Shown here piece after piece: positions 21,670 through 29,173 of a stretch of DNA of 63,599 bases (position 1 is its first letter; each line of letters starts with the position of its first letter). This stretch comes from Candidatus Falkowbacteria bacterium UBA917. GTDB lineage: Bacteria; Patescibacteriota; Patescibacteriia; Patescibacteriales; Patescibacteriaceae. The translations under genes were made by a program, and so were the position numbers. The notes beneath the pieces were generated by a model, which saw only the letters and a list, made by a program, of their open reading frames with translations, made no database searches and had not been told where the DNA came from. The stretch is from the NCBI GenBank assembly GCA_002293855.1, contig DBEB01000010.1:1-63599 (forward strand), written 5' to 3'.

Positions 21670-22743
21670 TTAATTGAGAGCCTTGAGTATAAGGTTGAGT
21701 AATTTTTGATTGGAGCCGGATCCCAAGGACTTGTGCAACTTAGCGCCATAGTCAGTCAGTGCAGCTCGGTCAGCCAAAGCAGCCTTGAGCTCGGAAACAA
21801 AAGTCCAGGCAGTGGTTTTGGATTGATCTAGTCTAATAGCAGCGCCACGTTTGACAAAGTAATCAGCATTAGCTTCCTGATGAGAATTGGGCAAAGGAAT
21901 TAAGACAACTGGCTTGCTCAGATAAGCTAATTCGGTGATGACACCCATGCCAGCCCGAGAGACGATCAGATCTGCTGCGCTATAAGCCTTGGCCATGGCG
22001 CTAGAATCAGATAATTCTAGAGCGTGATAGCGTGGATTCTTGTCGATGGCTAGCTGTTTGGAGCGACCAGTAATATGAATAACCTGACAGAGTTGAGTTA
22101 GGTTATAAAGATTATCTAAGACCAGTTTGTTAATAGCAATTGAGCCAGTGCCACCGGCTAAGATCAGGATGGTTGGCAGCTTGGGGTCTAAATTAAAAGC
22201 CGCCCGAGCAAGTGCTGGATCTAGATCAGCGGCGCCACTGATCGCCAAGCGAACTGGACAGCCAGTCACTTGACCCTGCGGATAATGAGCCTTGGACTCT
22301 GGCAAAGTTAAAGCAACTTGAGCACCAAAAAAAGCCATAATCCGATTAGCGAGCCCTGGTAAGACATCGAGCTGCAAGATAATCACCTTGACTGAACAGA
22401 GCTTGGCGGCAGCAGCTAAAGGAACACTGACAAAGCTACCAGCACTAACAATCAGTCGTGGTCGATATTTAAAAATAAGTAAAAGTGATTGAAAAAAAGC
22501 GTAAATGACAAAAAAAGGATCGATAAAATTACGGAGTGAAAAATAACGACGTAATTTACCGCTGGCAATAGCATGATAAGCCAGCTGATGTTCGGCGACT
22601 AGAGATTTTTCAACCCCGTTTTCGGTGCCAACAAACTGACAAACAACTCGATCGCCTAAATCTTCAGCGAGAGCAAGTAGTGGTGTGACTGAGCCAAGCG
22701 TGCCGCCACCACTCAAAAAAATAACTTCTTTAGAGTGATCCAT
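21670..22743 (-). CDS. murG: undecaprenyldiphospho-muramoylpentapeptide beta-N-acetylglucosaminyltransferase
   Basis: 357 aa. It has the GT28 layout (SGGGTLGSVTPLLALAE...ILAGGTGS...ADLIVSRAGMGVITELAYLSKPVVLIPLP) and sits next to ftsW and mraY. Confidence 0.8.
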   Translation of the reverse strand: MDHSKEVIFLSGGGTLGSVTPLLALAEDLGDRVVCQFVGTENGVEKSLVAEHQLAYHAIASGKLRRYFSLRNFIDPFFVIYAFFQSLLLIFKYRPRLIVSAGSFVSVPLAAAAKLCSVKVIILQLDVLPGLANRIMAFFGAQVALTLPESKAHYPQGQVTGCPVRLAISGAADLDPALARAAFNLDPKLPTILILAGGTGSIAINKLVLDNLYNLTQLCQVIHITGRSKQLAIDKNPRYHALELSDSSAMAKAYSAADLIVSRAGMGVITELAYLSKPVVLIPLPNSHQEANADYFVKRGAAIRLDQSKTTAWTFVSELKAALADRAALTDYGAKLHKSLGSGSNQKLLNLILKALN

Positions 22744-23875
22744 ATTTTTGGTGACGACTAATATTAGCTAAAATGCCCAGAGCAAAGAGCGAAGAGATGA
22801 GTGAAGATCCACCATAGCTAATCAATGGCAAAGGAATGCCGGTCATAGGTAATAGATTAATGATGCCACCGATATTAAAAATAGTTTGAATAGCTAGCCA
22901 AGCGGTAATGCCAGTAGCCAGATTTTTGGCAAAATCATCAGAGCTATTTTTGGCAATGGCAAAACCTTTGGCAAAAAGAGCAAAAAAAGTAGCAAGTAGT
23001 AACAGACAAAAAACTAAACCGATTTCTTCGGCTATGACCGCAAAGATAAAATCATTATGAACTTCGGGAATATTGAGATATTTTTGACGACTATTACCAA
23101 TACCTCGACCAAAGAAGCCGCCAGAACCAATAGCGATCAGGGATTGATTAACCTGATAGCAAGCCCCCATAGAATCATAACTAGCATCGATTACACAATG
23201 AAAACGTTTTTGCTGACGCTCGCTAAAAGAAACCAAAGCAGCGAGAGCGAGCAAGGCCAAGAGACAAATGGCTAGAAGCTTCCTCAGCGGCACGCCACTG
23301 ATAAAAAAAACTACAAAAGAGGCGCCGGAAATAATGATCAAAGTGCCAAGATCCGGTTGCAGTAAAATCAGAGTAGCAATAAGGCCATAAATAGCTAAAA
23401 AGGGATATAGACTGTCGCTGTGATTAGAATGACCAGCAGAGCGATGCTTGGCAAACCAAGCTGATAAATAAACTATAAATAATAATTTAATCAGCTCAGT
23501 TGGCTGAAAAGTAACAAAACCAAGATTGAGCCAACTACGTGAGCCATTGACTAACTTGCCTAAGCCCGGTAAAAAAAGCGCAATCAAAAGAAGTAAAGAA
23601 ACAATCAGAGCGGGTAGAGCCAGTTTTTTCCATAGTTGATGAGGCGTGCGAGAGCCAATCCAAAAAGCCAGAGCACCAATGGCAGCAAAAAAAAGTTGGC
23701 GTTTAAAAAAATAATAGGCATCCTGATGATTTTCGTAAGCAATAACCGAAGAAGCAGAAGACAACATGATCAAACCAAAAACCAAGAGTCCAGTGACCAG
23801 TAAGAGTAACCAACGATCAATAGTATATTGGCGAGATTGAACTTTATTTAATTGGCTGAAAAAATTGCTAAACAT
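22730..23875 (-). CDS. ftsW: SEDS family peptidoglycan glycosyltransferase FtsW/RodA
   Basis: 381 aa and polytopic. It carries FQPTELIKL, PEVHNDFIFAVIAEEIG and PLPLISYGGSS motifs. Confidence 0.9.
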   Translation of the reverse strand: MFSNFFSQLNKVQSRQYTIDRWLLLLVTGLLVFGLIMLSSASSVIAYENHQDAYYFFKRQLFFAAIGALAFWIGSRTPHQLWKKLALPALIVSLLLLIALFLPGLGKLVNGSRSWLNLGFVTFQPTELIKLLFIVYLSAWFAKHRSAGHSNHSDSLYPFLAIYGLIATLILLQPDLGTLIIISGASFVVFFISGVPLRKLLAICLLALLALAALVSFSERQQKRFHCVIDASYDSMGACYQVNQSLIAIGSGGFFGRGIGNSRQKYLNIPEVHNDFIFAVIAEEIGLVFCLLLLATFFALFAKGFAIAKNSSDDFAKNLATGITAWLAIQTIFNIGGIINLLPMTGIPLPLISYGGSSLISSLFALGILANISRHQKYGSL

Positions 23876-23909
23876 TAGTAAAGTGATAACAAGCTAAAGG
23901 ATCCACGAC

Positions 23910-24962
23910 TTAAATCATGCGGTCTAAAATAAACAGAGCAATACCTAGTGCTGAACTAACACCAGCGATAACCCAGAAACGCATTACAATCTTGGACTCT
24001 AACCAACCGATGGCTTCAAAATGATGGTGTATAGGAGCGGACAAAAAGACTTTTTTGCCATGACGGAGTTTTTTGGAGCTGAGCTGAATGATGACTGACA
24101 GTGACTCGATAACAAAGACTGAGCCGATAATCAACAAAAAGGGAGCTGTATCAGTTAACATGGCAATGATCCCCAAGGTAATACCAAGGCTCATAGCCCC
24201 TGTATCGCCCATATAAAAACGCGCTGGGGTAATATTGAACCAAAGAAAGGCAAGTAGCGCGCCGACGATAACGGCACAAAAAACGGCTAGATTCGCCTTG
24301 CCCATCATCAGGGCAATCACACCATAAGCCATGTAGCTGTTGAGTAGGACGCCACCAGCCAAACCATCTAAACCATCAGTTTCATTGACACTAAAGGCAG
24401 TAGCTACAATGACGATAATAAAGACTGGAATATAAAACCAACCGAGATCAAAGCTTTGCCAAAAAGGGATGGTAAATAATGTTTTACCAAGCTTGAAATA
24501 AAACCAAGCAGCGCCAATAGAGGCGATGAGAGTGTAAATAGCCAGACGATGCTTAATAGTTAAGCCTCCCCCACCCAGAGCCCCCTTGCCACGTACATCG
24601 AGCCAGTCATCAAAAAGACCTACTAGCGCCGAAGCAACCAAGGCACCGATAGGCAGCCAAGTTTCGGTGCGCTCCAAGAAATTCATATGCCCCCAAAAAC
24701 TGCTAGGCCACAGGATTGATAAACAATTAAAGATAATGGCTAGAGCGAGCACAGTCCCCCAGATCAGTACGCCACCCATAGTAGGGGTACCGCTTTTTTT
24801 GGCGTGGAGCTGTGAAAAAATTGGCGTATTACCGCTATTACGAATTTGCTTACCGAGTTTGAATTTGTAAAGAAACTTAGTCCAGAGCGGAGTCCAGGCC
24901 ATGGCCACAACAAAGGCTAAAGAACCGAGTAACAAAATCCTGATAATTGCAGCTTTGTCCAT
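23910..24962 (-). CDS. mraY: phospho-N-acetylmuramoyl-pentapeptide transferase
   Basis: 350 aa. It carries GTPTMGG, NETDGLDGLAGG and PIHHHFE motifs. Confidence 0.95.
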   Translation of the reverse strand: MDKAAIIRILLLGSLAFVVAMAWTPLWTKFLYKFKLGKQIRNSGNTPIFSQLHAKKSGTPTMGGVLIWGTVLALAIIFNCLSILWPSSFWGHMNFLERTETWLPIGALVASALVGLFDDWLDVRGKGALGGGGLTIKHRLAIYTLIASIGAAWFYFKLGKTLFTIPFWQSFDLGWFYIPVFIIVIVATAFSVNETDGLDGLAGGVLLNSYMAYGVIALMMGKANLAVFCAVIVGALLAFLWFNITPARFYMGDTGAMSLGITLGIIAMLTDTAPFLLIIGSVFVIESLSVIIQLSSKKLRHGKKVFLSAPIHHHFEAIGWLESKIVMRFWVIAGVSSALGIALFILDRMI

Positions 24963-24965
24963 ATT

Positions 24966-25385
24966 TTAGAATAAGTTAACAAAATTAATTAAATAAAGTG
25001 AATAAATACCTAAGGCTACCAAGATATTAATAATGATAGCTGAGCCAGCAGTCAGATAAGCTAATAACCGATGATACTTCAGTAAATAGACGGACAGGAG
25101 CAAGTTAACTGAGCCTATTAACAAACTACTAACTGGCAAGAAATAGAGACGAGCGGGCGGTCCAATCAGATCAGTGCCAAAGAGAATATTATAGTGCAGG
25201 TTAATATTGTCTTGATCAAGTTGGCTATAAAGGGAGTAGCTTAAAAAACAACAGATAAAAAAACTGATGAGCCACAAAAACAGATGTATCCGCAAAGGTA
25301 GATAAGCCCAAAAGCTATGCCAGTGAGCCTGAAAATTAGAGCGAGCTAGACTAACAAAAGCCAGACTTTTCTGAGCAAAATTCAT
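24966..25385 (-). CDS. hypothetical membrane protein (4 predicted TM)
   Basis: 139 aa, hydrophobic and AT-rich. It lies immediately upstream of mraY in the same orientation. No family was recognised. Confidence 0.5.
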   Translation of the reverse strand: MNFAQKSLAFVSLARSNFQAHWHSFWAYLPLRIHLFLWLISFFICCFLSYSLYSQLDQDNINLHYNILFGTDLIGPPARLYFLPVSSLLIGSVNLLLSVYLLKYHRLLAYLTAGSAIIINILVALGIYSLYLINFVNLF

Positions 25386-25491
25386 ATTAGGCTAGTGTAT
25401 CACAAAGTTTTGGAAAATAAAACATACTTTTATTAGACTATAATACTCTTTGTAAGTCAACTAAAATGATCTGCTTAACTATATTTTATAC

Positions 25492-25520
25492 TTAGCTAAT
25501 TAGTCGCTTTGTGGTATAAT
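25492..25520 (+). promoter_or_regulatory. extended -10 promoter (TGgTATAAT) placed 6 nt before the ATG at 25527, implying a leaderless transcript
   Basis: tgg tataat is at 25512-25520. A weak -35 (ttagct) is at 25492-25497 with a 17-nt spacer. The ATG at 25527 is where the TSS is expected. Confidence 0.5.
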
Positions 25521-25526
25521 AGAGTT

Positions 25527-26684
25527 ATGTCTAAAAGTTTAGAAAAGAATTCACTGGCTGGAAAATTGATTCATAATTTGATTAATTTTGCCGTTTACCA
25601 TGAGGCTGATCGGATTCAATTGCAATCAGCTCAGCCAGGCCAGAAAATCGCTGTACGATATTTTAATGCTGGTAAACAATTATCAGAATGGTCGATGCCC
25701 GCTATCTTTAGCGAAGTCTTGTGGTCAAGACTATCAGTAGCAAAGGATATTGGCGAAGGTTATTTTTTGGTGTCCGGACCGACAAGTGCTATTCATTGTC
25801 AAGTTGAGAAGCTAAATACTGATGATGGTGAAAACTTATTAATTCAGCTCCGTGAAGGATCGACTGATCATAGTTGGTCTAGCGCCCAATTTGACCAAGA
25901 AATGACTGATAATCTACTGACAGCACTAGACGGCAAGGGCTTGGGCCTGATCAGTGGCGAGACTCATGCTTGGACCAATCAACTAGCCTATACACTCCTA
26001 AACACTCTCGCTGACGAACAACACTGCTTAGCTAGTCTAGAGGATCCAATCATCAAAAAAATAACTGGAGTCAATCAATACGAGTGGCAACTAGGCAAAG
26101 GCCAAAGCTACCAGAGATTATTTGAATTGATACTAGCCCAAGACCCTGATTTGATTTATATCAGTGAGTTTGCGAGAGTAAGCAGGCACAGCTTGGCGAT
26201 AGCTGCGACCGGTAAATTTGTGCTAGCCAGAACCCAACAACACTCAGTGTCAGAATTAATCAAGAATTTGATTAATGGTAGCGATGGCAAGGCGGTGATA
26301 GAAAGACTGCGTTTTGTTTTGCAAGTTTATCTGGTTAAGCAAAACTGCCCCCACTGCTTAGTGGTTTGTAGACTATCTGATAGCGACAAAGAAAAATTAG
26401 CTAGCATAAGTGGACTGAGCTTGGAAGCGATCAATGCCATTGACTTTGCTGAAAGCCAAGGCTGCGAGCACTGTAGCTTTAGAGCTAGTAGCGGCGAGAT
26501 GCCTCTCTACGACGCTTGGTTTTTATCAACTGAGCAAGCCAAAAAACTAAGCACTGCTACTTTTAATAACAAAACTAGGCAATTTATAGCTGAAGCTATG
26601 CAATTAAACGCACTAGAGGACGCCTGGCTCAAAGCGCAATTACAATTAATAAGCCCACTGGAAATTATTAATAGATTTGGCTAA
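25527..26684 (+). CDS. PilB/GspE-family secretion ATPase homolog with degenerate catalytic motifs (predicted pseudo-ATPase)
   Basis: The family-typical order is kept: ADRIQLQS...AVRYF (ASDIHIEP-like), LEDPII (Asp box), DPDLIYISEFAR (Walker B region), and the tetracysteine CPHC...CEHC. Walker A reads GLISGETHAWTN instead of GPTGSGKT, so the lysine is lost. The His box reads TGKFVLARTQQH. I prefer the start at ATG 25527 (MSKSLEKN) over the track TTG at 25509. Confidence 0.65.
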   Translation: MSKSLEKNSLAGKLIHNLINFAVYHEADRIQLQSAQPGQKIAVRYFNAGKQLSEWSMPAIFSEVLWSRLSVAKDIGEGYFLVSGPTSAIHCQVEKLNTDDGENLLIQLREGSTDHSWSSAQFDQEMTDNLLTALDGKGLGLISGETHAWTNQLAYTLLNTLADEQHCLASLEDPIIKKITGVNQYEWQLGKGQSYQRLFELILAQDPDLIYISEFARVSRHSLAIAATGKFVLARTQQHSVSELIKNLINGSDGKAVIERLRFVLQVYLVKQNCPHCLVVCRLSDSDKEKLASISGLSLEAINAIDFAESQGCEHCSFRASSGEMPLYDAWFLSTEQAKKLSTATFNNKTRQFIAEAMQLNALEDAWLKAQLQLISPLEIINRFG

Positions 26685-26692
26685 ACGGCTTT

Positions 26693-29173
26693 ATGGAAAA
26701 CCTTAAAAAACTATACAAAGAATTAGCCACTTCAGCCAAAGGCTTGAGTAGTTTGGAGGCAGCCAAAAGACTAAAAAAATATGGCCCCAATGAAGTTGCT
26801 AAAGCTCAAAAACTAGCACCAGTCTGGCAGTTTTTGGCTAGTTTTAAAAACCCTTTGATTATTATCCTGATTATTGCAGCAGTGATCTCGGGGGCAACTG
26901 GATCGATTAAAAATGCTTTGATAATTTTATTCATGATCTTGCTGAGTACGGTTTTGAATTTTTATCAGGAATTCAAGTCAGCTAAAGCGGCAGCTAAAAT
27001 TGCTAAGCAGTTACAACTGCAGGTCACAGCACTCAGAGACTCTAAACAAAGAGAGATTTTAAACAAAGAAGTTGTCCCTGGCGATGTGCTTTGCCTAGAT
27101 GCTGGCTCAATTATCGCCGCTGATGGATTACTGATTGAAGCTGATGATTTTTTTGTCAATGAGTCGAGCTTAACTGGTGAAAGTTTTCCAGTTGAAAAAA
27201 GAGCAAATGAAAGCAAAGAAGCGATAATCTTGGCTGGGAGCACCGTAGTATCAGGCTTTGCCAAGATGCTGGCGGCCAAAACTGGCATCAACACACAAAT
27301 CGGCAAAGTAACTCAAAGTCTAGTAAAAAAAGAAGAAATTAATGCTTTTGAAAAAGGCTTGGTAAGCTTTGGCATGATCATTGTCAAAGTTATTATATTT
27401 ATCATCTTGATTGTCTTTTTGATTAATGCCGTACTTGATCGTAACCTCATAGAATCCTTTCTGTTTTCACTAGCGATTGCGGTCGGCGTGACACCAGAGC
27501 TACTACCAGTCATTCTGGCTATTAACATGGGCAAGGCTTCGGTCAATATGGCCAAGCGTGGCGTAATCGTCAAAAGACTCGACTGCATTCCAGACTTTGG
27601 CTCGATGGATCTACTCTGCACTGATAAAACCGGCACCTTGACTCAAGACAAAATCACCTTGGTACGTTTTACTGATCTAGCTGGAACTGAAGATGAAAGC
27701 GTCTTGCGACTCGCCTACATCAACGGCTACTTTGAAACTGGTATCAAAAGCTTACTAGATAAAGCGATTATTGATTTCCGGACACTAGCAGTCGATGGCC
27801 TGCAAAAAATCGATGAGATCCCTTATGACTTCATGCGTCGCCGATCTTCGATTATCTATGAGGACAAAAATCAAAAAATAATGGTAACCAAAGGCGCTCC
27901 AGAGGAGATTTTTAAAATTTGTACTCAGTATCATCTTGATCGTGATGAGCAAATGAGTGTAGCCCGTTTACAACAATTCAAGAATTATTATGAAGATCTC
28001 AGTCGCCAAGGCTTCCGAGTCTTAGCAATCGCTACCAAATATCTAGCCGGACATGAGACTAGCCATATTGAAAACAACATGACCTTGCGTGGCTTTGTAG
28101 CCTTTTATGATCCACCTAAAAAAGATATTAAGCCAACTCTAGACTTGATCAAAAACCACGGTGTGGAGATCAAGATTTTGACTGGTGATAGCGCTCTAGT
28201 AACAACCAAAATATGCGAAGAGCTTGGCCTAAAGGTTAGCGGCATCATTAGTGGTGAGGAGCTAGATATTAATAATCTCAGTGATCAGGCACTAGCCATC
28301 AAAGTAGCTGGAGCAACAATTTGCGCTCGACTCTCCCCTAGTCAAAAAGAGCGAATAATTTTGGCTCTCAAAAAACAGGGCCGAGTGATTGGCTATCTAG
28401 GTGACGGTATTAATGATGCGCCAGCCCTCAAAGCGGCTGATGTCGGCATCAGCGTTGATAATGCCGTCGATGTAGCCAAAGAAGCGGCGGATATCATCCT
28501 AATGAAAAAGGGTCTTGCTGAAATAATGGACGCGGTAATCGAGGGTCGAAGAACCTTTGGCAATGCTATGAAGTACATGCTGATGAGTTTGTCATCAAAC
28601 TTTGGCAATATGTTTTCAATGATTGGAGCTGCTTTATTTCTCCCCTTTTTACCGATGACAGCAGGGCAAATATTACTCAATAACTTTGTCTACGATGTAG
28701 CACAATTGTCGATCCCCTCTGATAATGTTGATTCAGAATATTTAGCCAAACCAAAGCAGTGGAATTTGAAATTTATTATTCGCTACATGTTAGTCTTTGG
28801 TCCGATTTCTTCAGTCTTTGATTTTTTTACCTTTTGGATACTGTATAGCTCAATGAACTTACAGGCTGGAGCCTTTCAAGCGGGCTGGTTCCTAGAGTCA
28901 CTTGCCACTCAAGTCTTGGTGATTTATGTGATTCGAACTCGCAAGATTCCGTTTATTCAGTCCCGACCAAGCGGGCTACTAGCCCTCACAACAGTCTTAG
29001 CGGTTTTCTTTGCCTTACTAGTAGTTATGACTGGTTTAGGAGAGGTATTTGGCTTCGCTGTCTTAACTCTGCCAACAGTCCTGATGATTGGAGCGCTGGT
29101 ACTTGCTTATTTAGTGATCGTAGAAGTAGCTAAGCAAATCTTCTATCGCAAATTTCATCAGCCAGATGCTTGA
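26693..29173 (+). CDS. mgtA: P-type ATPase, MgtA-like magnesium-importing type
   Basis: 826 aa. It has the N-terminal GLSSLEAAKRLKKYGPNEV, the phosphorylation site CTDKTGTLT, TGDS, GDGINDAPALKAADVGISV, and the MgtA-like LLNNFVYDVAQLSIPSDNVD. Confidence 0.8.
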   Translation: MENLKKLYKELATSAKGLSSLEAAKRLKKYGPNEVAKAQKLAPVWQFLASFKNPLIIILIIAAVISGATGSIKNALIILFMILLSTVLNFYQEFKSAKAAAKIAKQLQLQVTALRDSKQREILNKEVVPGDVLCLDAGSIIAADGLLIEADDFFVNESSLTGESFPVEKRANESKEAIILAGSTVVSGFAKMLAAKTGINTQIGKVTQSLVKKEEINAFEKGLVSFGMIIVKVIIFIILIVFLINAVLDRNLIESFLFSLAIAVGVTPELLPVILAINMGKASVNMAKRGVIVKRLDCIPDFGSMDLLCTDKTGTLTQDKITLVRFTDLAGTEDESVLRLAYINGYFETGIKSLLDKAIIDFRTLAVDGLQKIDEIPYDFMRRRSSIIYEDKNQKIMVTKGAPEEIFKICTQYHLDRDEQMSVARLQQFKNYYEDLSRQGFRVLAIATKYLAGHETSHIENNMTLRGFVAFYDPPKKDIKPTLDLIKNHGVEIKILTGDSALVTTKICEELGLKVSGIISGEELDINNLSDQALAIKVAGATICARLSPSQKERIILALKKQGRVIGYLGDGINDAPALKAADVGISVDNAVDVAKEAADIILMKKGLAEIMDAVIEGRRTFGNAMKYMLMSLSSNFGNMFSMIGAALFLPFLPMTAGQILLNNFVYDVAQLSIPSDNVDSEYLAKPKQWNLKFIIRYMLVFGPISSVFDFFTFWILYSSMNLQAGAFQAGWFLESLATQVLVIYVIRTRKIPFIQSRPSGLLALTTVLAVFFALLVVMTGLGEVFGFAVLTLPTVLMIGALVLAYLVIVEVAKQIFYRKFHQPDA

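What the first reader, a model, noticed from the sequence alone, without database searches (positions are those of the whole stretch)
25492..26684. Catalytically degenerate PilB/GspE-like protein (predicted pseudo-ATPase)
The protein keeps the family scaffold in order: an N-terminal ASDIHIEP-like ADRIQLQS, the Asp box LEDPII, the Walker B region DPDLIYISEFAR, and the tetracysteine CPHC...CEHC zinc site. The Walker A loop is GLISGETHAWTN where GPTGSGKT is expected, so the invariant Lys is replaced by Thr. The His box TGHLVLSTLHTN is TGKFVLARTQQH. A secretion or pilus ATPase that can no longer bind or hydrolyse ATP, yet retains fold-defining motifs, suggests a regulatory or structural paralog. 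It might cap or modulate a bona fide PilB/PilT hexamer. Type IV pili are reported as central to episymbiotic lifestyles in at least some CPR lineages (Saccharibacteria).
Basis: partly seen in the sequence, partly recalled or inferred. Interest (0 to 1): 0.62.

Follow-up and report, generated by a model that had tools for sequence, protein, structure and literature searches.

The report
Conserved PilB-derived pseudo-ATPase family
This gene encodes a well-folded copy of the motor that normally powers pilus assembly, but it has lost every residue needed to bind or split ATP; it is kept intact by selection in a small group of ultrasmall (Patescibacteria) bacteria, always at one fixed place next to the cell-wall/division genes and never in a pilus locus, so it is a motor fold reused for an unknown non-enzymatic job.

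Summary
Window 25527-26684 (+) encodes a 385-aa PilB/GspE-core protein. It has the N2 and C-terminal ATPase domains and the zinc tetracysteine, but no N1 domain.

- **Fold:** the predicted structure has pLDDT 92 and matches PilB/PilF cores at TM about 0.8.
- **Lost residues:** the Walker A Lys and glycines, the Mg-binding Asp-box Glu, both His-box histidines and both N2 arginine fingers are replaced. There is no P-loop elsewhere in the protein.
- **Not a pseudogene:** dN/dS is 0.13, and all relatives, down to about 20% identity, are full-length.
- **A distinct family:** the gene fills a fixed slot, divergent from a 140-aa membrane protein-mraY-ftsW-murG operon, in 4 of 7 genera of one Patescibacteria family. 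On a tree these slot proteins split from canonical PilB modules with 100/99 support. The whole family lacks the hydrolysis residues. Some members keep Walker A; the window's clade lost it too. The four cysteines are invariant.
- **Genome context:** the genome has three PilB-PilC pairs and a tandem PilB-PilB fusion elsewhere. In the window's clade an MgtA Mg2+ pump follows 4-9 nt downstream, except in one relative.

The pseudo-ATPase status is well supported. Function is unknown.

The parts
25527..26684 (+). Gene for the 385-aa PilB/GspE-core pseudo-ATPase. An alternative TTG start at 25509 gives 391 aa; residue numbers in this report count from that TTG.
   Evidence: ORF. PF00437 58 bits. AlphaFold2 pLDDT 92. 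Foldseek best matches are PilF/PilB cores at TM 0.8. Orthologues start at MSKS.
25947..25982 (+). Walker A remnant LISGETHAWTNQ (residues 147-158). The canonical sequence is L(V/I)TGPTGSGKTT. K is replaced by T, and the two glycines by H and W.
   Evidence: The loop is not conserved among orthologues (ETHAW / EDGAW / ANQAF / VNLAF).
25800..25847 (+). Positions of the two N2-domain arginine fingers (G. metallireducens PilB R271 and R286). Here they are Q98 and Q113.
   Evidence: for the columns. (PMC5424180) for their role.
26034..26060 (+). Asp box SLEDPIIKK (residues 176-184). E178-D-P is kept. The Mg-coordinating Glu (PilB E357) is I182.
26139..26180 (+). Atypical Walker B region QDPDLIYISEFARV (residues 211-224). 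The strand is kept. GE(I)RD has become SEFAR. Glu220 is not conserved in orthologues.
26202..26243 (+). His box remnant AATGKFVLARTQQH (residues 232-245). H413 and H420 of PilB are K236 and Q243.
26346..26474 (+). Zinc tetracysteine module, CPHC (residues 280-283) ... CEHC (residues 319-322).
   Evidence: Invariant in all 18 aligned slot-family proteins and in canonical PilBs.
25512..25520 (+). TGGTATAAT, an extended -10-like promoter element 6 nt before ATG 25527. It implies a leaderless or very short-leader mRNA.
   Evidence: Read from the sequence. TGnTATAAT (TATACT in one) lies 6-12 nt before the start in five of the six distinct upstream regions compared, and about 100 nt upstream in the sixth. 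The consensus scan did not list it, because it has no -35 element.
24966..25385 (-). 139-aa polytopic membrane protein ('TM140'), first gene of the divergent mraY-ftsW-murG operon.
   Evidence: No Pfam or NCBIfam match. Present in all 41 genomes of the taxonomic family. Always the divergent neighbour of the slot gene.
21670..24962 (-). mraY (23910-24962), ftsW (22730-23875) and murG (21670-22743): the dcw genes of the divergent operon.
   Evidence: Pfam families of the orthologous loci. ORFs.
26693..29173 (+). MgtA-type Mg2+-translocating P-type ATPase, 8 nt downstream, with no terminator in between.
   Evidence: TIGR01524 846 bits against a cut-off of 611. No terminator-like site between the genes. 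The same tight arrangement is found at every locus of the Walker-A-lost clade examined except P0005 (340 nt).

Best explanation
The gene encodes a pseudo-ATPase. It is a PilB/GspE extension-motor core (N2 domain, RecA-like C-terminal domain, zinc tetracysteine module; no N1 domain) that can no longer bind Mg-ATP or hydrolyse it.

**The family.** It is the most eroded member of a lineage-restricted orthologous family that fills one fixed slot, divergent from the TM140-mraY-ftsW-murG operon, in one family of Patescibacteria.
- The whole family had already lost the hydrolysis apparatus (His box, Arg fingers, Mg-binding Glu, and in most members the catalytic Glu).
- Some members still have a P-loop. 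The window's clade has lost that as well.
- Selection keeps the fold, the four zinc cysteines, the Walker B strand Asp and a family-specific Glu (E370) in the C-terminal helical subdomain.

**Inferred mechanism (not shown).** The protein works through binding rather than ATP turnover, as a rigid, zinc-stabilised PilB-core scaffold locked in a nucleotide-free state that binds a partner.

**Partner.** The partner is unresolved. My split is:
- about 30%: the adjacent or co-occurring membrane machinery (the MgtA Mg2+ pump in this clade, or the envelope/dcw genes);
- about 25%: the type IV pilus platform or PilB motors;
- the rest: something else.

My odds are about 85% that it is a pseudo-ATPase kept by selection, and about 70% for the whole statement including a binding-only role.
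For: **Shown**
- Homology and fold: PF00437 at 58 bits; PilF at E 2e-14; AlphaFold2 pLDDT 92 and pTM 0.84; Foldseek to 5tsh/5oiu/5zfr/1p9w over the whole length at TM 0.75-0.82.
- Loss of every nucleotide or Mg ligand named for PilB by McCallum 2017: R271, R286, E357, H413 and H420 are here Q98, Q113, I182, K236 and Q243, and the Walker A Lys is Thr. There is no other P-loop.
- The P-loop residues are free to vary among orthologues.
- Purifying selection: dN/dS 0.13 against the 96%-identical strain, compared with 0.01-0.14 for the neighbours.
- Intact reading frames: 12 cluster members from many samples, 11 of them 385 aa long; orthologues at 43-49% and 25-29% identity and slot genes of other genera are all open frames.
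- Conserved synteny at every locus examined.
- The family is a separate branch: 19 slot proteins against 43 canonical modules, split support 100/99, present in 100% of bootstrap trees.
- Family-wide invariants are the four Cys, G144, D214, G318 and E370.
- A conserved promoter-like element precedes the gene.

**Bearing on the partner**
- mgtA lies 4-9 nt downstream in both deep subclades of the Walker-A-lost clade. Between those subclades the pseudo-ATPase is 28% identical and MgtA 67%.
- MgtA scores over its cut-off in 9 of 9 genomes with the slot gene and in 2 of 32 without it.
Against:
- The structure model leans on an alignment made mostly of canonical PilBs.
- Loss of canonical motifs cannot by itself exclude an unconventional ligand site.
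- The tree joins long branches, so attraction could inflate the unity of the family. Synteny supports it independently.
- The synteny and the MgtA co-occurrence sit in only four related genera and may be plain inheritance. mgtA lies elsewhere in genera g3, g5 and g6, and in P0005 it is 340 nt away.
- The gene is absent from three genera of the same family, so it is dispensable there.
- dN/dS is higher than for mraY and ftsW, and the protein evolves fast.
Confidence: 0.7

Rival explanations
1. One reading: a poison, cap or regulatory subunit of the type IV pilus motors. The dead PilB core either co-assembles with active PilB or docks on PilC/PilM in place of PilB. In that way it would gate extension of one of the organism's three pilus systems, or substitute for the missing PilT by blocking re-extension.
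For: - Its only recognisable homology is to PilB/GspE/PilF.
- The genome encodes three PilB-PilC pairs, a tandem PilB-PilB and PilM, but no PilT above the cut-off.
- Nucleotide-free PilB acts as a signal in Myxococcus, according to the review PMC11656802 and the abstract of PMC5544727.
- The C-terminal family motif (L.ED...K...L.S..E) is partly kept.
Against: - The gene is never next to pilus genes at any locus examined.
- It has no N1 domain.
- It is only about 20% identical to the organism's own PilBs.
- The arginine fingers and the His-box residues that form the inter-subunit interface are lost.
- It is absent from genera g2, g4 and g7, which still have PilB and tandem PilB.
Confidence: 0.25
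2. The protein has been recruited to the neighbouring membrane machinery. It would be an accessory or regulatory subunit of the MgtA Mg2+ pump, co-translated with it in this clade, or a factor tied to the divergently transcribed envelope/division operon. From memory, a precedent is the growth- and division-arrest role of the T2SSE-family protein ComGA in Bacillus subtilis.
For: - An 8-nt spacer and no terminator before mgtA.
- The same junction in every locus of the Walker-A-lost clade examined, including one only 28% identical.
- MgtA in 9 of 9 genomes with the slot gene against 2 of 32 without it.
- The divergent TM140-mraY arrangement at all loci.
Against: - The co-occurrence is confounded by phylogeny: four genera against three.
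- mgtA is unlinked in g3, g5 and g6.
- TM140-mraY is present in all 41 genomes whether or not the slot gene is there.
- No known P-type ATPase uses a PilB-like partner.
- No riboswitch or other shared regulatory RNA was found.
Confidence: 0.3
3. A relic on its way to loss: a duplicated PilB that became useless and has not yet decayed.
For: - Fast evolution: 28% identity where the neighbouring MgtA keeps 67%.
- The slot is empty in three genera.
- The copies in genus g6 are shorter (341-389 aa) and extremely diverged.
- dN/dS is about 10 times that of mraY.
Against: - dN/dS of 0.13 is far below 1.
- No stop or frameshift in about 20 diverged copies.
- The four cysteines and a few other positions are invariant across the family.
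- The promoter-like element is conserved.
- The fold is predicted with confidence.
Confidence: 0.05
4. A cryptic enzyme or ligand sensor: the remodelled pocket (Trp/Phe in place of the P-loop Gly, Thr in place of Lys) binds another nucleotide or metabolite.
For: - An aromatic residue is kept at position 155 and Ala at 154 in the window's subclade.
- D212/D214 and E178 are kept.
Against: - The rest of the loop is unconserved.
- All phosphate and Mg ligands are gone, including those supplied by the neighbouring subunit.
Confidence: 0.07

Closest known systems
[quoted passage not shown]
   Same: - The same fold over the whole length (TM 0.75-0.82).
- The same domain order: N2, RecA-like C-terminal domain, zinc tetracysteine module, C-terminal helical subdomain.
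- The Asp-box 'EDP' and the Walker B strand 'QDPD.I' are kept.
   Different: - No N1/GSPII domain.
- Walker A Lys and glycines, Mg-binding Glu, His box and arginine fingers are all replaced.
- It scores 78 bits against the 676-bit cut-off of the PilB equivalog model.
- It is never beside pilC or pilins.
- It forms a separate tree branch.
Walker-A-retaining slot orthologues in sister genera (e.g. P0051, P0158, P0028; genus g3 and metagenomes)
   Same: The same length, the same genomic slot next to TM140-mraY, the same loss of His box and Arg fingers (and, in most, of the catalytic Glu), and the same tetracysteine.
   Different: They keep GP.GSGKT and so may still bind nucleotide. They are not followed by mgtA.
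ArlH/FlaH of the archaellum (ATP-binding partner protein of the T2SSE-family motor ArlI/FlaI; PMC6011876, abstract only)
   Same: An accessory nucleotide-binding-fold protein that works beside a PilT/VirB11-like hexameric motor. It is a functional analogy for the 'regulatory partner' reading.
   Different: From memory, it has a KaiC/RecA-like fold rather than a PilB fold, still binds ATP, and is encoded inside the archaellum operon.
Nucleotide-free PilB as a signal in Myxococcus xanthus (PMC5544727; review PMC11656802)
   Same: It shows that a PilB unable to bind ATP (Walker A K327A) can still have a biological output, namely regulation of exopolysaccharide.
   Different: That is a mutant state of a working motor, not a dedicated, evolutionarily fixed pseudo-ATPase.
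PilT/PilU retraction ATPases
   Same: N1-less, roughly 350-400-aa hexameric T2SSE-family proteins.
   Different: They have no tetracysteine and their catalytic motifs are intact. The pilT_fam model gives only 16 bits against a cut-off of 319, and Foldseek TM is lower, about 0.6-0.65.

Membership tests
T2SSE superfamily (Pfam PF00437) | Profile match over the gathering threshold across the N2 and C-terminal domains | tested here: met
   58.3 bits against 24.9; residues 16-362 on profile positions 7-345 of 370.
T2SSE superfamily (Pfam PF00437) | PilB/GspE core fold | tested here: met
   AlphaFold2 pLDDT 92. Foldseek E 1e-29 to 1e-25 to PilF, PilB and EpsE at TM 0.75-0.82.
PilB / GspE extension ATPase (functional enzyme; NCBIfam TIGR02538, TIGR02533) | Equivalog model score over the curated cut-off | tested here: not met
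   77.8 bits against 675.65 (PilB); 59.9 against 630.25 (GspE).
PilB / GspE extension ATPase | Walker A G-x-x-G-x-G-K-[ST] | tested here: not met
   The aligned sequence is SGETHAWT. There is no P-loop anywhere in the protein.
PilB / GspE extension ATPase | Asp-box Glu that coordinates Mg2+ (PilB E357) | tested here: not met
   Ile182 here; I/M/V/L in the clade.
PilB / GspE extension ATPase | Catalytic Glu after the atypical Walker B (PilB E395) | tested here: inconclusive
   Glu220 is present in this species, but the position is D/H/D/N/N/N in the other members of the clade, and the flanking G and RD are lost.
PilB / GspE extension ATPase | His box (PilB H413, H420) | tested here: not met
   Lys236 and Gln243.
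PilB / GspE extension ATPase | Two N2-domain arginine fingers (PilB R271, R286) | tested here: not met
   Gln98 and Gln113.
PilB / GspE extension ATPase | Tetracysteine zinc motif of the PilB/GspE clade | tested here: met
   CPHC...CEHC, invariant across the family. Zinc binding itself was not tested.
PilB / GspE extension ATPase | N-terminal N1/GSPII domain (PF05157) that anchors the motor to PilM/GspL | tested here: not met
   The protein starts at profile position 183 of 564 of the PilB model and at position 146 of 537 of my PilB profile. No PF05157 match.
PilB / GspE extension ATPase | Encoded with pilC/gspF and pilins | tested here: not met
   The neighbours are TM140-mraY-ftsW-murG and mgtA/nifS. 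The genome's three pilC genes sit beside other PilBs.
PilT/PilU retraction ATPase (TIGR01420) | Model score over the cut-off | tested here: not met
   16.2 bits against 319.1.
Pseudoenzyme (pseudo-ATPase) | Homologue of an enzyme family with the catalytic and ligand-binding residues replaced | tested here: met
Pseudoenzyme (pseudo-ATPase) | Maintained by purifying selection as an intact gene | tested here: met
   dN/dS 0.13. About 20 intact diverged copies.
Pseudoenzyme (pseudo-ATPase) | No nucleotide binding or hydrolysis by the protein | not testable with these tools
   This needs purified protein.

The most novel reading that the evidence does not exclude
A secretion-motor fold has been exapted, in one Patescibacteria lineage, into a nucleotide-free, zinc-dependent accessory subunit of membrane machinery unrelated to pili. 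The concrete version is a partner of the MgtA Mg2+ P-type pump, with which it is co-transcribed in the window's clade and co-distributed across the family. Alternatively it could be a link between envelope/division genes and Mg2+ supply.
Probability: 0.15. Interest if true: 0.75.

Novelty: new variant of a known kind. Interest (0 to 1): 0.45.

Why it matters
PilB/GspE/PilT-type hexameric motors are treated as obligate ATPases. My literature searches, which are limited to open-access text, found no natural and conserved pseudo-ATPase branch of this family.

This family offers a graded natural series in one orthologous slot:
- P-loop kept but hydrolysis residues lost;
- P-loop Lys changed to Arg;
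- P-loop gone.

The zinc module is the one strictly kept feature throughout. That makes the family a useful handle on what the PilB scaffold and its zinc subdomain do apart from ATP turnover. It also bears on how ultrasmall episymbiotic bacteria, which depend heavily on pili, reuse motor paralogues.

The practical reach is limited. The family is confined to a few uncultured genera and its function is unknown.

Tried and rejected
**Searches that added nothing**
- Rfam on the locus and on two related loci found no riboswitch or leader; the only hit was a chance miRNA match at E 0.29.
- The consensus promoter/terminator scan gave no more sites than shuffled sequence. The extended -10 element was found by eye and by comparing orthologous upstream regions.
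- The genome-contig scan returned a single locus, in a genome assembled from a metagenome (MAG) that is labelled Gammaproteobacteria, probably wrongly.
- The word-indexed protein search misses the 25-29% relatives. The exhaustive representative search was needed to find them.
- Literature searches for a described PilB/GspE pseudo-ATPase, and for tandem PilB in these bacteria, found nothing relevant.

**Ideas rejected**
- An intact P-loop elsewhere in the protein.
- A decaying pseudogene.
- A PilT-type protein.
- TM140 as a dedicated partner of the slot gene: it is present in all 41 genomes of the family, including those with an empty slot.
- A short but genuine PilB like those in pilus operons (L039, L040). 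Those keep ASDIHIEP and all motifs, and L039 sits next to a pilC-like gene and pilin-like genes.
Full report
**1. The observation**

The finding sits on one ORF, 25509 (TTG) or 25527 (ATG) to 26684 on the + strand.
- All orthologues begin MSKS/MSKS-like at the ATG.
- A TGGTATAAT element at 25512-25520 lies inside the TTG extension.
- I therefore take ATG 25527 as the start, giving 385 aa. Residue numbers below count from the TTG, as in P0001.

The protein matches Pfam PF00437 (T2SSE) at 58 bits against a cut-off of 24.9, over almost its whole length. It reaches only 78 of 676 bits on the PilB equivalog model, 60 of 630 on GspE, and 16 of 319 on PilT.

The best solved relatives are the Thermus PilF and Geobacter/Myxococcus PilB cores. 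That alignment places:
- SGETHAWT on GPTGSGKS;
- DPDLIYISEFAR on DPDIIMVGEIRD;
- TGKFVLARTQQHS on TGHLVIATLHTND.

**2. How dead is it?**

I aligned the protein and its relatives with 69 representatives that have intact Walker A and GE(I)RD motifs, then listed the 57 columns that are at least 90% conserved in the active set. The window protein keeps the four cysteines, structural Gly/Pro/hydrophobic positions, E178-D-P, Q190 and D212. It has lost:
- the Walker A Lys (now T156) and two glycines (H153, W155);
- E182, now Ile;
- both His-box histidines (K236, Q243);
- all eight conserved arginines.

Using the residue roles given for G. metallireducens PilB by McCallum et al. 2017 (PMC5424180), the correspondences are:

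| PilB residue | Role | Here |
|---|---|---|
| R271, R286 | N2 arginine fingers | Q98, Q113 |
| E357 | Mg-binding Asp-box Glu | I182 |
| H413, H420 | His box | K236, Q243 |
| E395 | catalytic Glu | E220 |

E220 is kept only in this species and its close strain; it is D/H/D/N in the other members of the clade. No P-loop-like string occurs anywhere else in the protein. Among orthologues the former P-loop is free to vary (ETHAW, EDGAW, ANQAF, VNLAF), which argues against a retained ligand site.

**3. The fold**

AlphaFold2, run on a 102-row alignment, gives mean pLDDT 92 and pTM 0.84. Foldseek finds the PilF, PilB and EpsE cores over the whole length (E 1e-29 to 1e-25, TM 0.75-0.82). PilT, DotB and BfpD rank lower. 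The protein corresponds to the N2 domain, the C-terminal domain with its zinc module, and the C-terminal helices. There is no N1 domain. One caveat: most alignment rows are canonical PilBs.

**4. Not a pseudogene**

- A 96%-identical orthologue (L009) differs at 47 nucleotides and 15 residues. dN/dS is 0.13, against 0.01-0.06 for mraY, ftsW and mgtA and 0.14 for TM139.
- Its 90% cluster holds 12 sequences from many samples, 11 of them exactly 385 aa.
- Relatives at 49, 48 and 43% identity and at 25-29% are full-length and have no frameshifts.

**5. A family with a fixed address**

At every locus I could read, the gene lies divergent from a roughly 140-aa membrane protein followed by mraY-ftsW-murG-murC-murB.

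A profile search of 316 genomes of the same order found strong members only in two genera of the window's own family, g1 and g3. Using the TM140 protein as an anchor (present in all 41 genomes of the family), I then inspected the slot directly:

| Genus | Slot content |
|---|---|
| g1 (2 of 2 genomes; G000 is the window's genome) | degenerate T2SSE-like gene, Walker A lost |
| g3 (3 of 3) | T2SSE-like gene, Walker A kept |
| g5 (G074) | 409 aa, P-loop GPTNSGKM |
| g6 (G188, G091, G139) | 368, 389 and 341 aa, Walker A unrecognisable |
| g2 (G009), g4 (G123), g7 (G151) | empty in the one genome of each that I read |

On a careful maximum-likelihood tree of core regions, the 19 slot proteins and the 43 canonical modules fall on opposite sides of one branch, with support 100/99 and in 100% of bootstrap trees. 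The canonical set includes this genome's five modules and both halves of tandem PilBs. Long branches are involved, so synteny is the independent support for orthology.

Motif states across the family:
- No member keeps the His box. The arginine fingers survive in only a few members, and most lack the catalytic Glu.
- The P-loop is intact in some (GPAGSGKT).
- It is weakened in others: K to R in P0025 and P0160, and GPTNSGKM in g5.
- It is gone in the window's clade and in g6.

The only positions invariant in all 18 aligned slot proteins are G144, D214, the four cysteines, G318 and a family-specific Glu (E370).

**6. Surroundings in this genome**

The 732-kb, 54-contig assembly is 89.6% complete. 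It holds:
- three PilB-PilC pairs (contigs C49, C16, C19);
- a 1005-aa tandem PilB-PilB with both modules intact (C17);
- PilM;
- no PilT above the cut-off.

The degenerate gene is not near any of these.

Eight nucleotides downstream, with no terminator-like site in between, starts an MgtA-type Mg2+ P-type ATPase (TIGR01524, 846 bits against 611).
- The same tight junction (4-9 nt) occurs at every locus of the Walker-A-lost clade I examined, with one exception at 340 nt. It also occurs in the deep subclade of P0009, where the pseudo-ATPase is 28% identical to the window's protein but MgtA is 67% identical.
- The Walker-A-retaining members are not followed by mgtA.
- Across the taxonomic family, MgtA over its cut-off is present in 9 of 9 genomes with the slot gene and in 2 of 32 without it. 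In g3, g5 and g6 it lies on other contigs.
- These are few, related genera, so this is a lead and not a test.

**7. Signals**

An extended -10-like TGnTATAAT (TATACT in one) lies 6-12 nt before the start codon in five of the six distinct upstream regions compared, and about 100 nt upstream in the sixth. This fits a gene with its own promoter and a leaderless or very short leader. Rfam finds no known RNA element.

**8. Interpretation**

*Shown.* This is an intact, selectively maintained PilB-core protein without any of the residues known to bind Mg-ATP or to couple subunits through the nucleotide. It belongs to a distinct, lineage-restricted orthologous family in which hydrolysis residues are gone family-wide and the P-loop has eroded stepwise, while the zinc tetracysteine is strictly kept.

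*Inferred.* The protein acts by binding, as a nucleotide-free scaffold. The partner is open.
- Against the pilus reading: the gene's address, the missing N1 domain, the lost interface residues, and its absence from sister genera that keep PilB.
- The MgtA/envelope reading rests on operon structure in this clade, on co-distribution, and on the universal dcw adjacency. All three are confounded by shared ancestry.

My odds:

| Claim | Probability |
|---|---|
| Pseudo-ATPase kept by selection | about 0.85 |
| Partner: MgtA/envelope | about 0.30 |
| Partner: pilus machinery | about 0.25 |
| Relic on its way to loss | about 0.05 |
| Cryptic ligand binder | about 0.07 |

**9. Novelty**

Source databases annotate the protein generically as "GspE/PulE/PilB-like". 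My searches of open-access literature found no described natural pseudo-ATPase branch of the PilB/GspE family, and the 2024 review of PilB cofactors mentions none. I rate it a new variant of a known kind. It is of moderate interest: clear and clean as an observation, but narrow in distribution and without a demonstrated function.

Noticed in passing
Own genome contig C17 (locus L003 178-3195, - strand): A single 1005-aa ORF carries two complete PilB modules in tandem. The first has N1, N2 and the C-terminal domain; the second has only N2 and the C-terminal domain. Both have intact Walker A, GE(I/V)RD, His box and tetracysteine. Open frames of 1004-1033 aa with two T2SSE matches recur in many genomes of the order. 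I found no paper describing them.
   Followed up: partly
Whole genome G000: The genome has three PilB-PilC pairs and PilM, but no PilT/PilU-type retraction ATPase above the model cut-off. The assembly is 89.6% complete, so absence is not proven.
   Followed up: partly
window 25473-25488, and the same intergenic position in L046, L038, L041: A motif GCTTAAC(A/T)(T/C)ATATTTTA is conserved between the TM140 gene and the slot gene in loci whose proteins are only 20-30% identical. Read on the minus strand it contains TAAAAT. It could be the -10 element of the dcw operon promoter, or an operator.
   Followed up: no
window 24966-25385 (-): A 139-aa polytopic membrane protein with no Pfam or NCBIfam match heads the mraY-ftsW-murG operon in all 41 genomes of the taxonomic family. 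It has an invariant Q...LHYN..FG.D motif and a conserved C-terminal LY..Y..N.V.
   Followed up: partly
L016 (CAYSXQ010000015.1): A metagenome-assembled genome labelled 'uncultured Gammaproteobacteria bacterium' carries the same Patescibacteria-type locus (TM140-mraY..., slot gene at 49% identity, mgtA) and corresponds to the same-genus genome G135. The taxonomic label is probably wrong.
   Followed up: no
L054, L055, L056 (genus g6 slot genes): The slot genes of genus g6 are shorter (341-389 aa) and so diverged that only the tetracysteine, a few glycines and the C-terminal helix are recognisable. They are still open frames.
   Followed up: partly
Own genome contig C32 25962-28487: A second, more distant P-type ATPase: 364 bits on the MgtA model, below the cut-off.
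   Followed up: no
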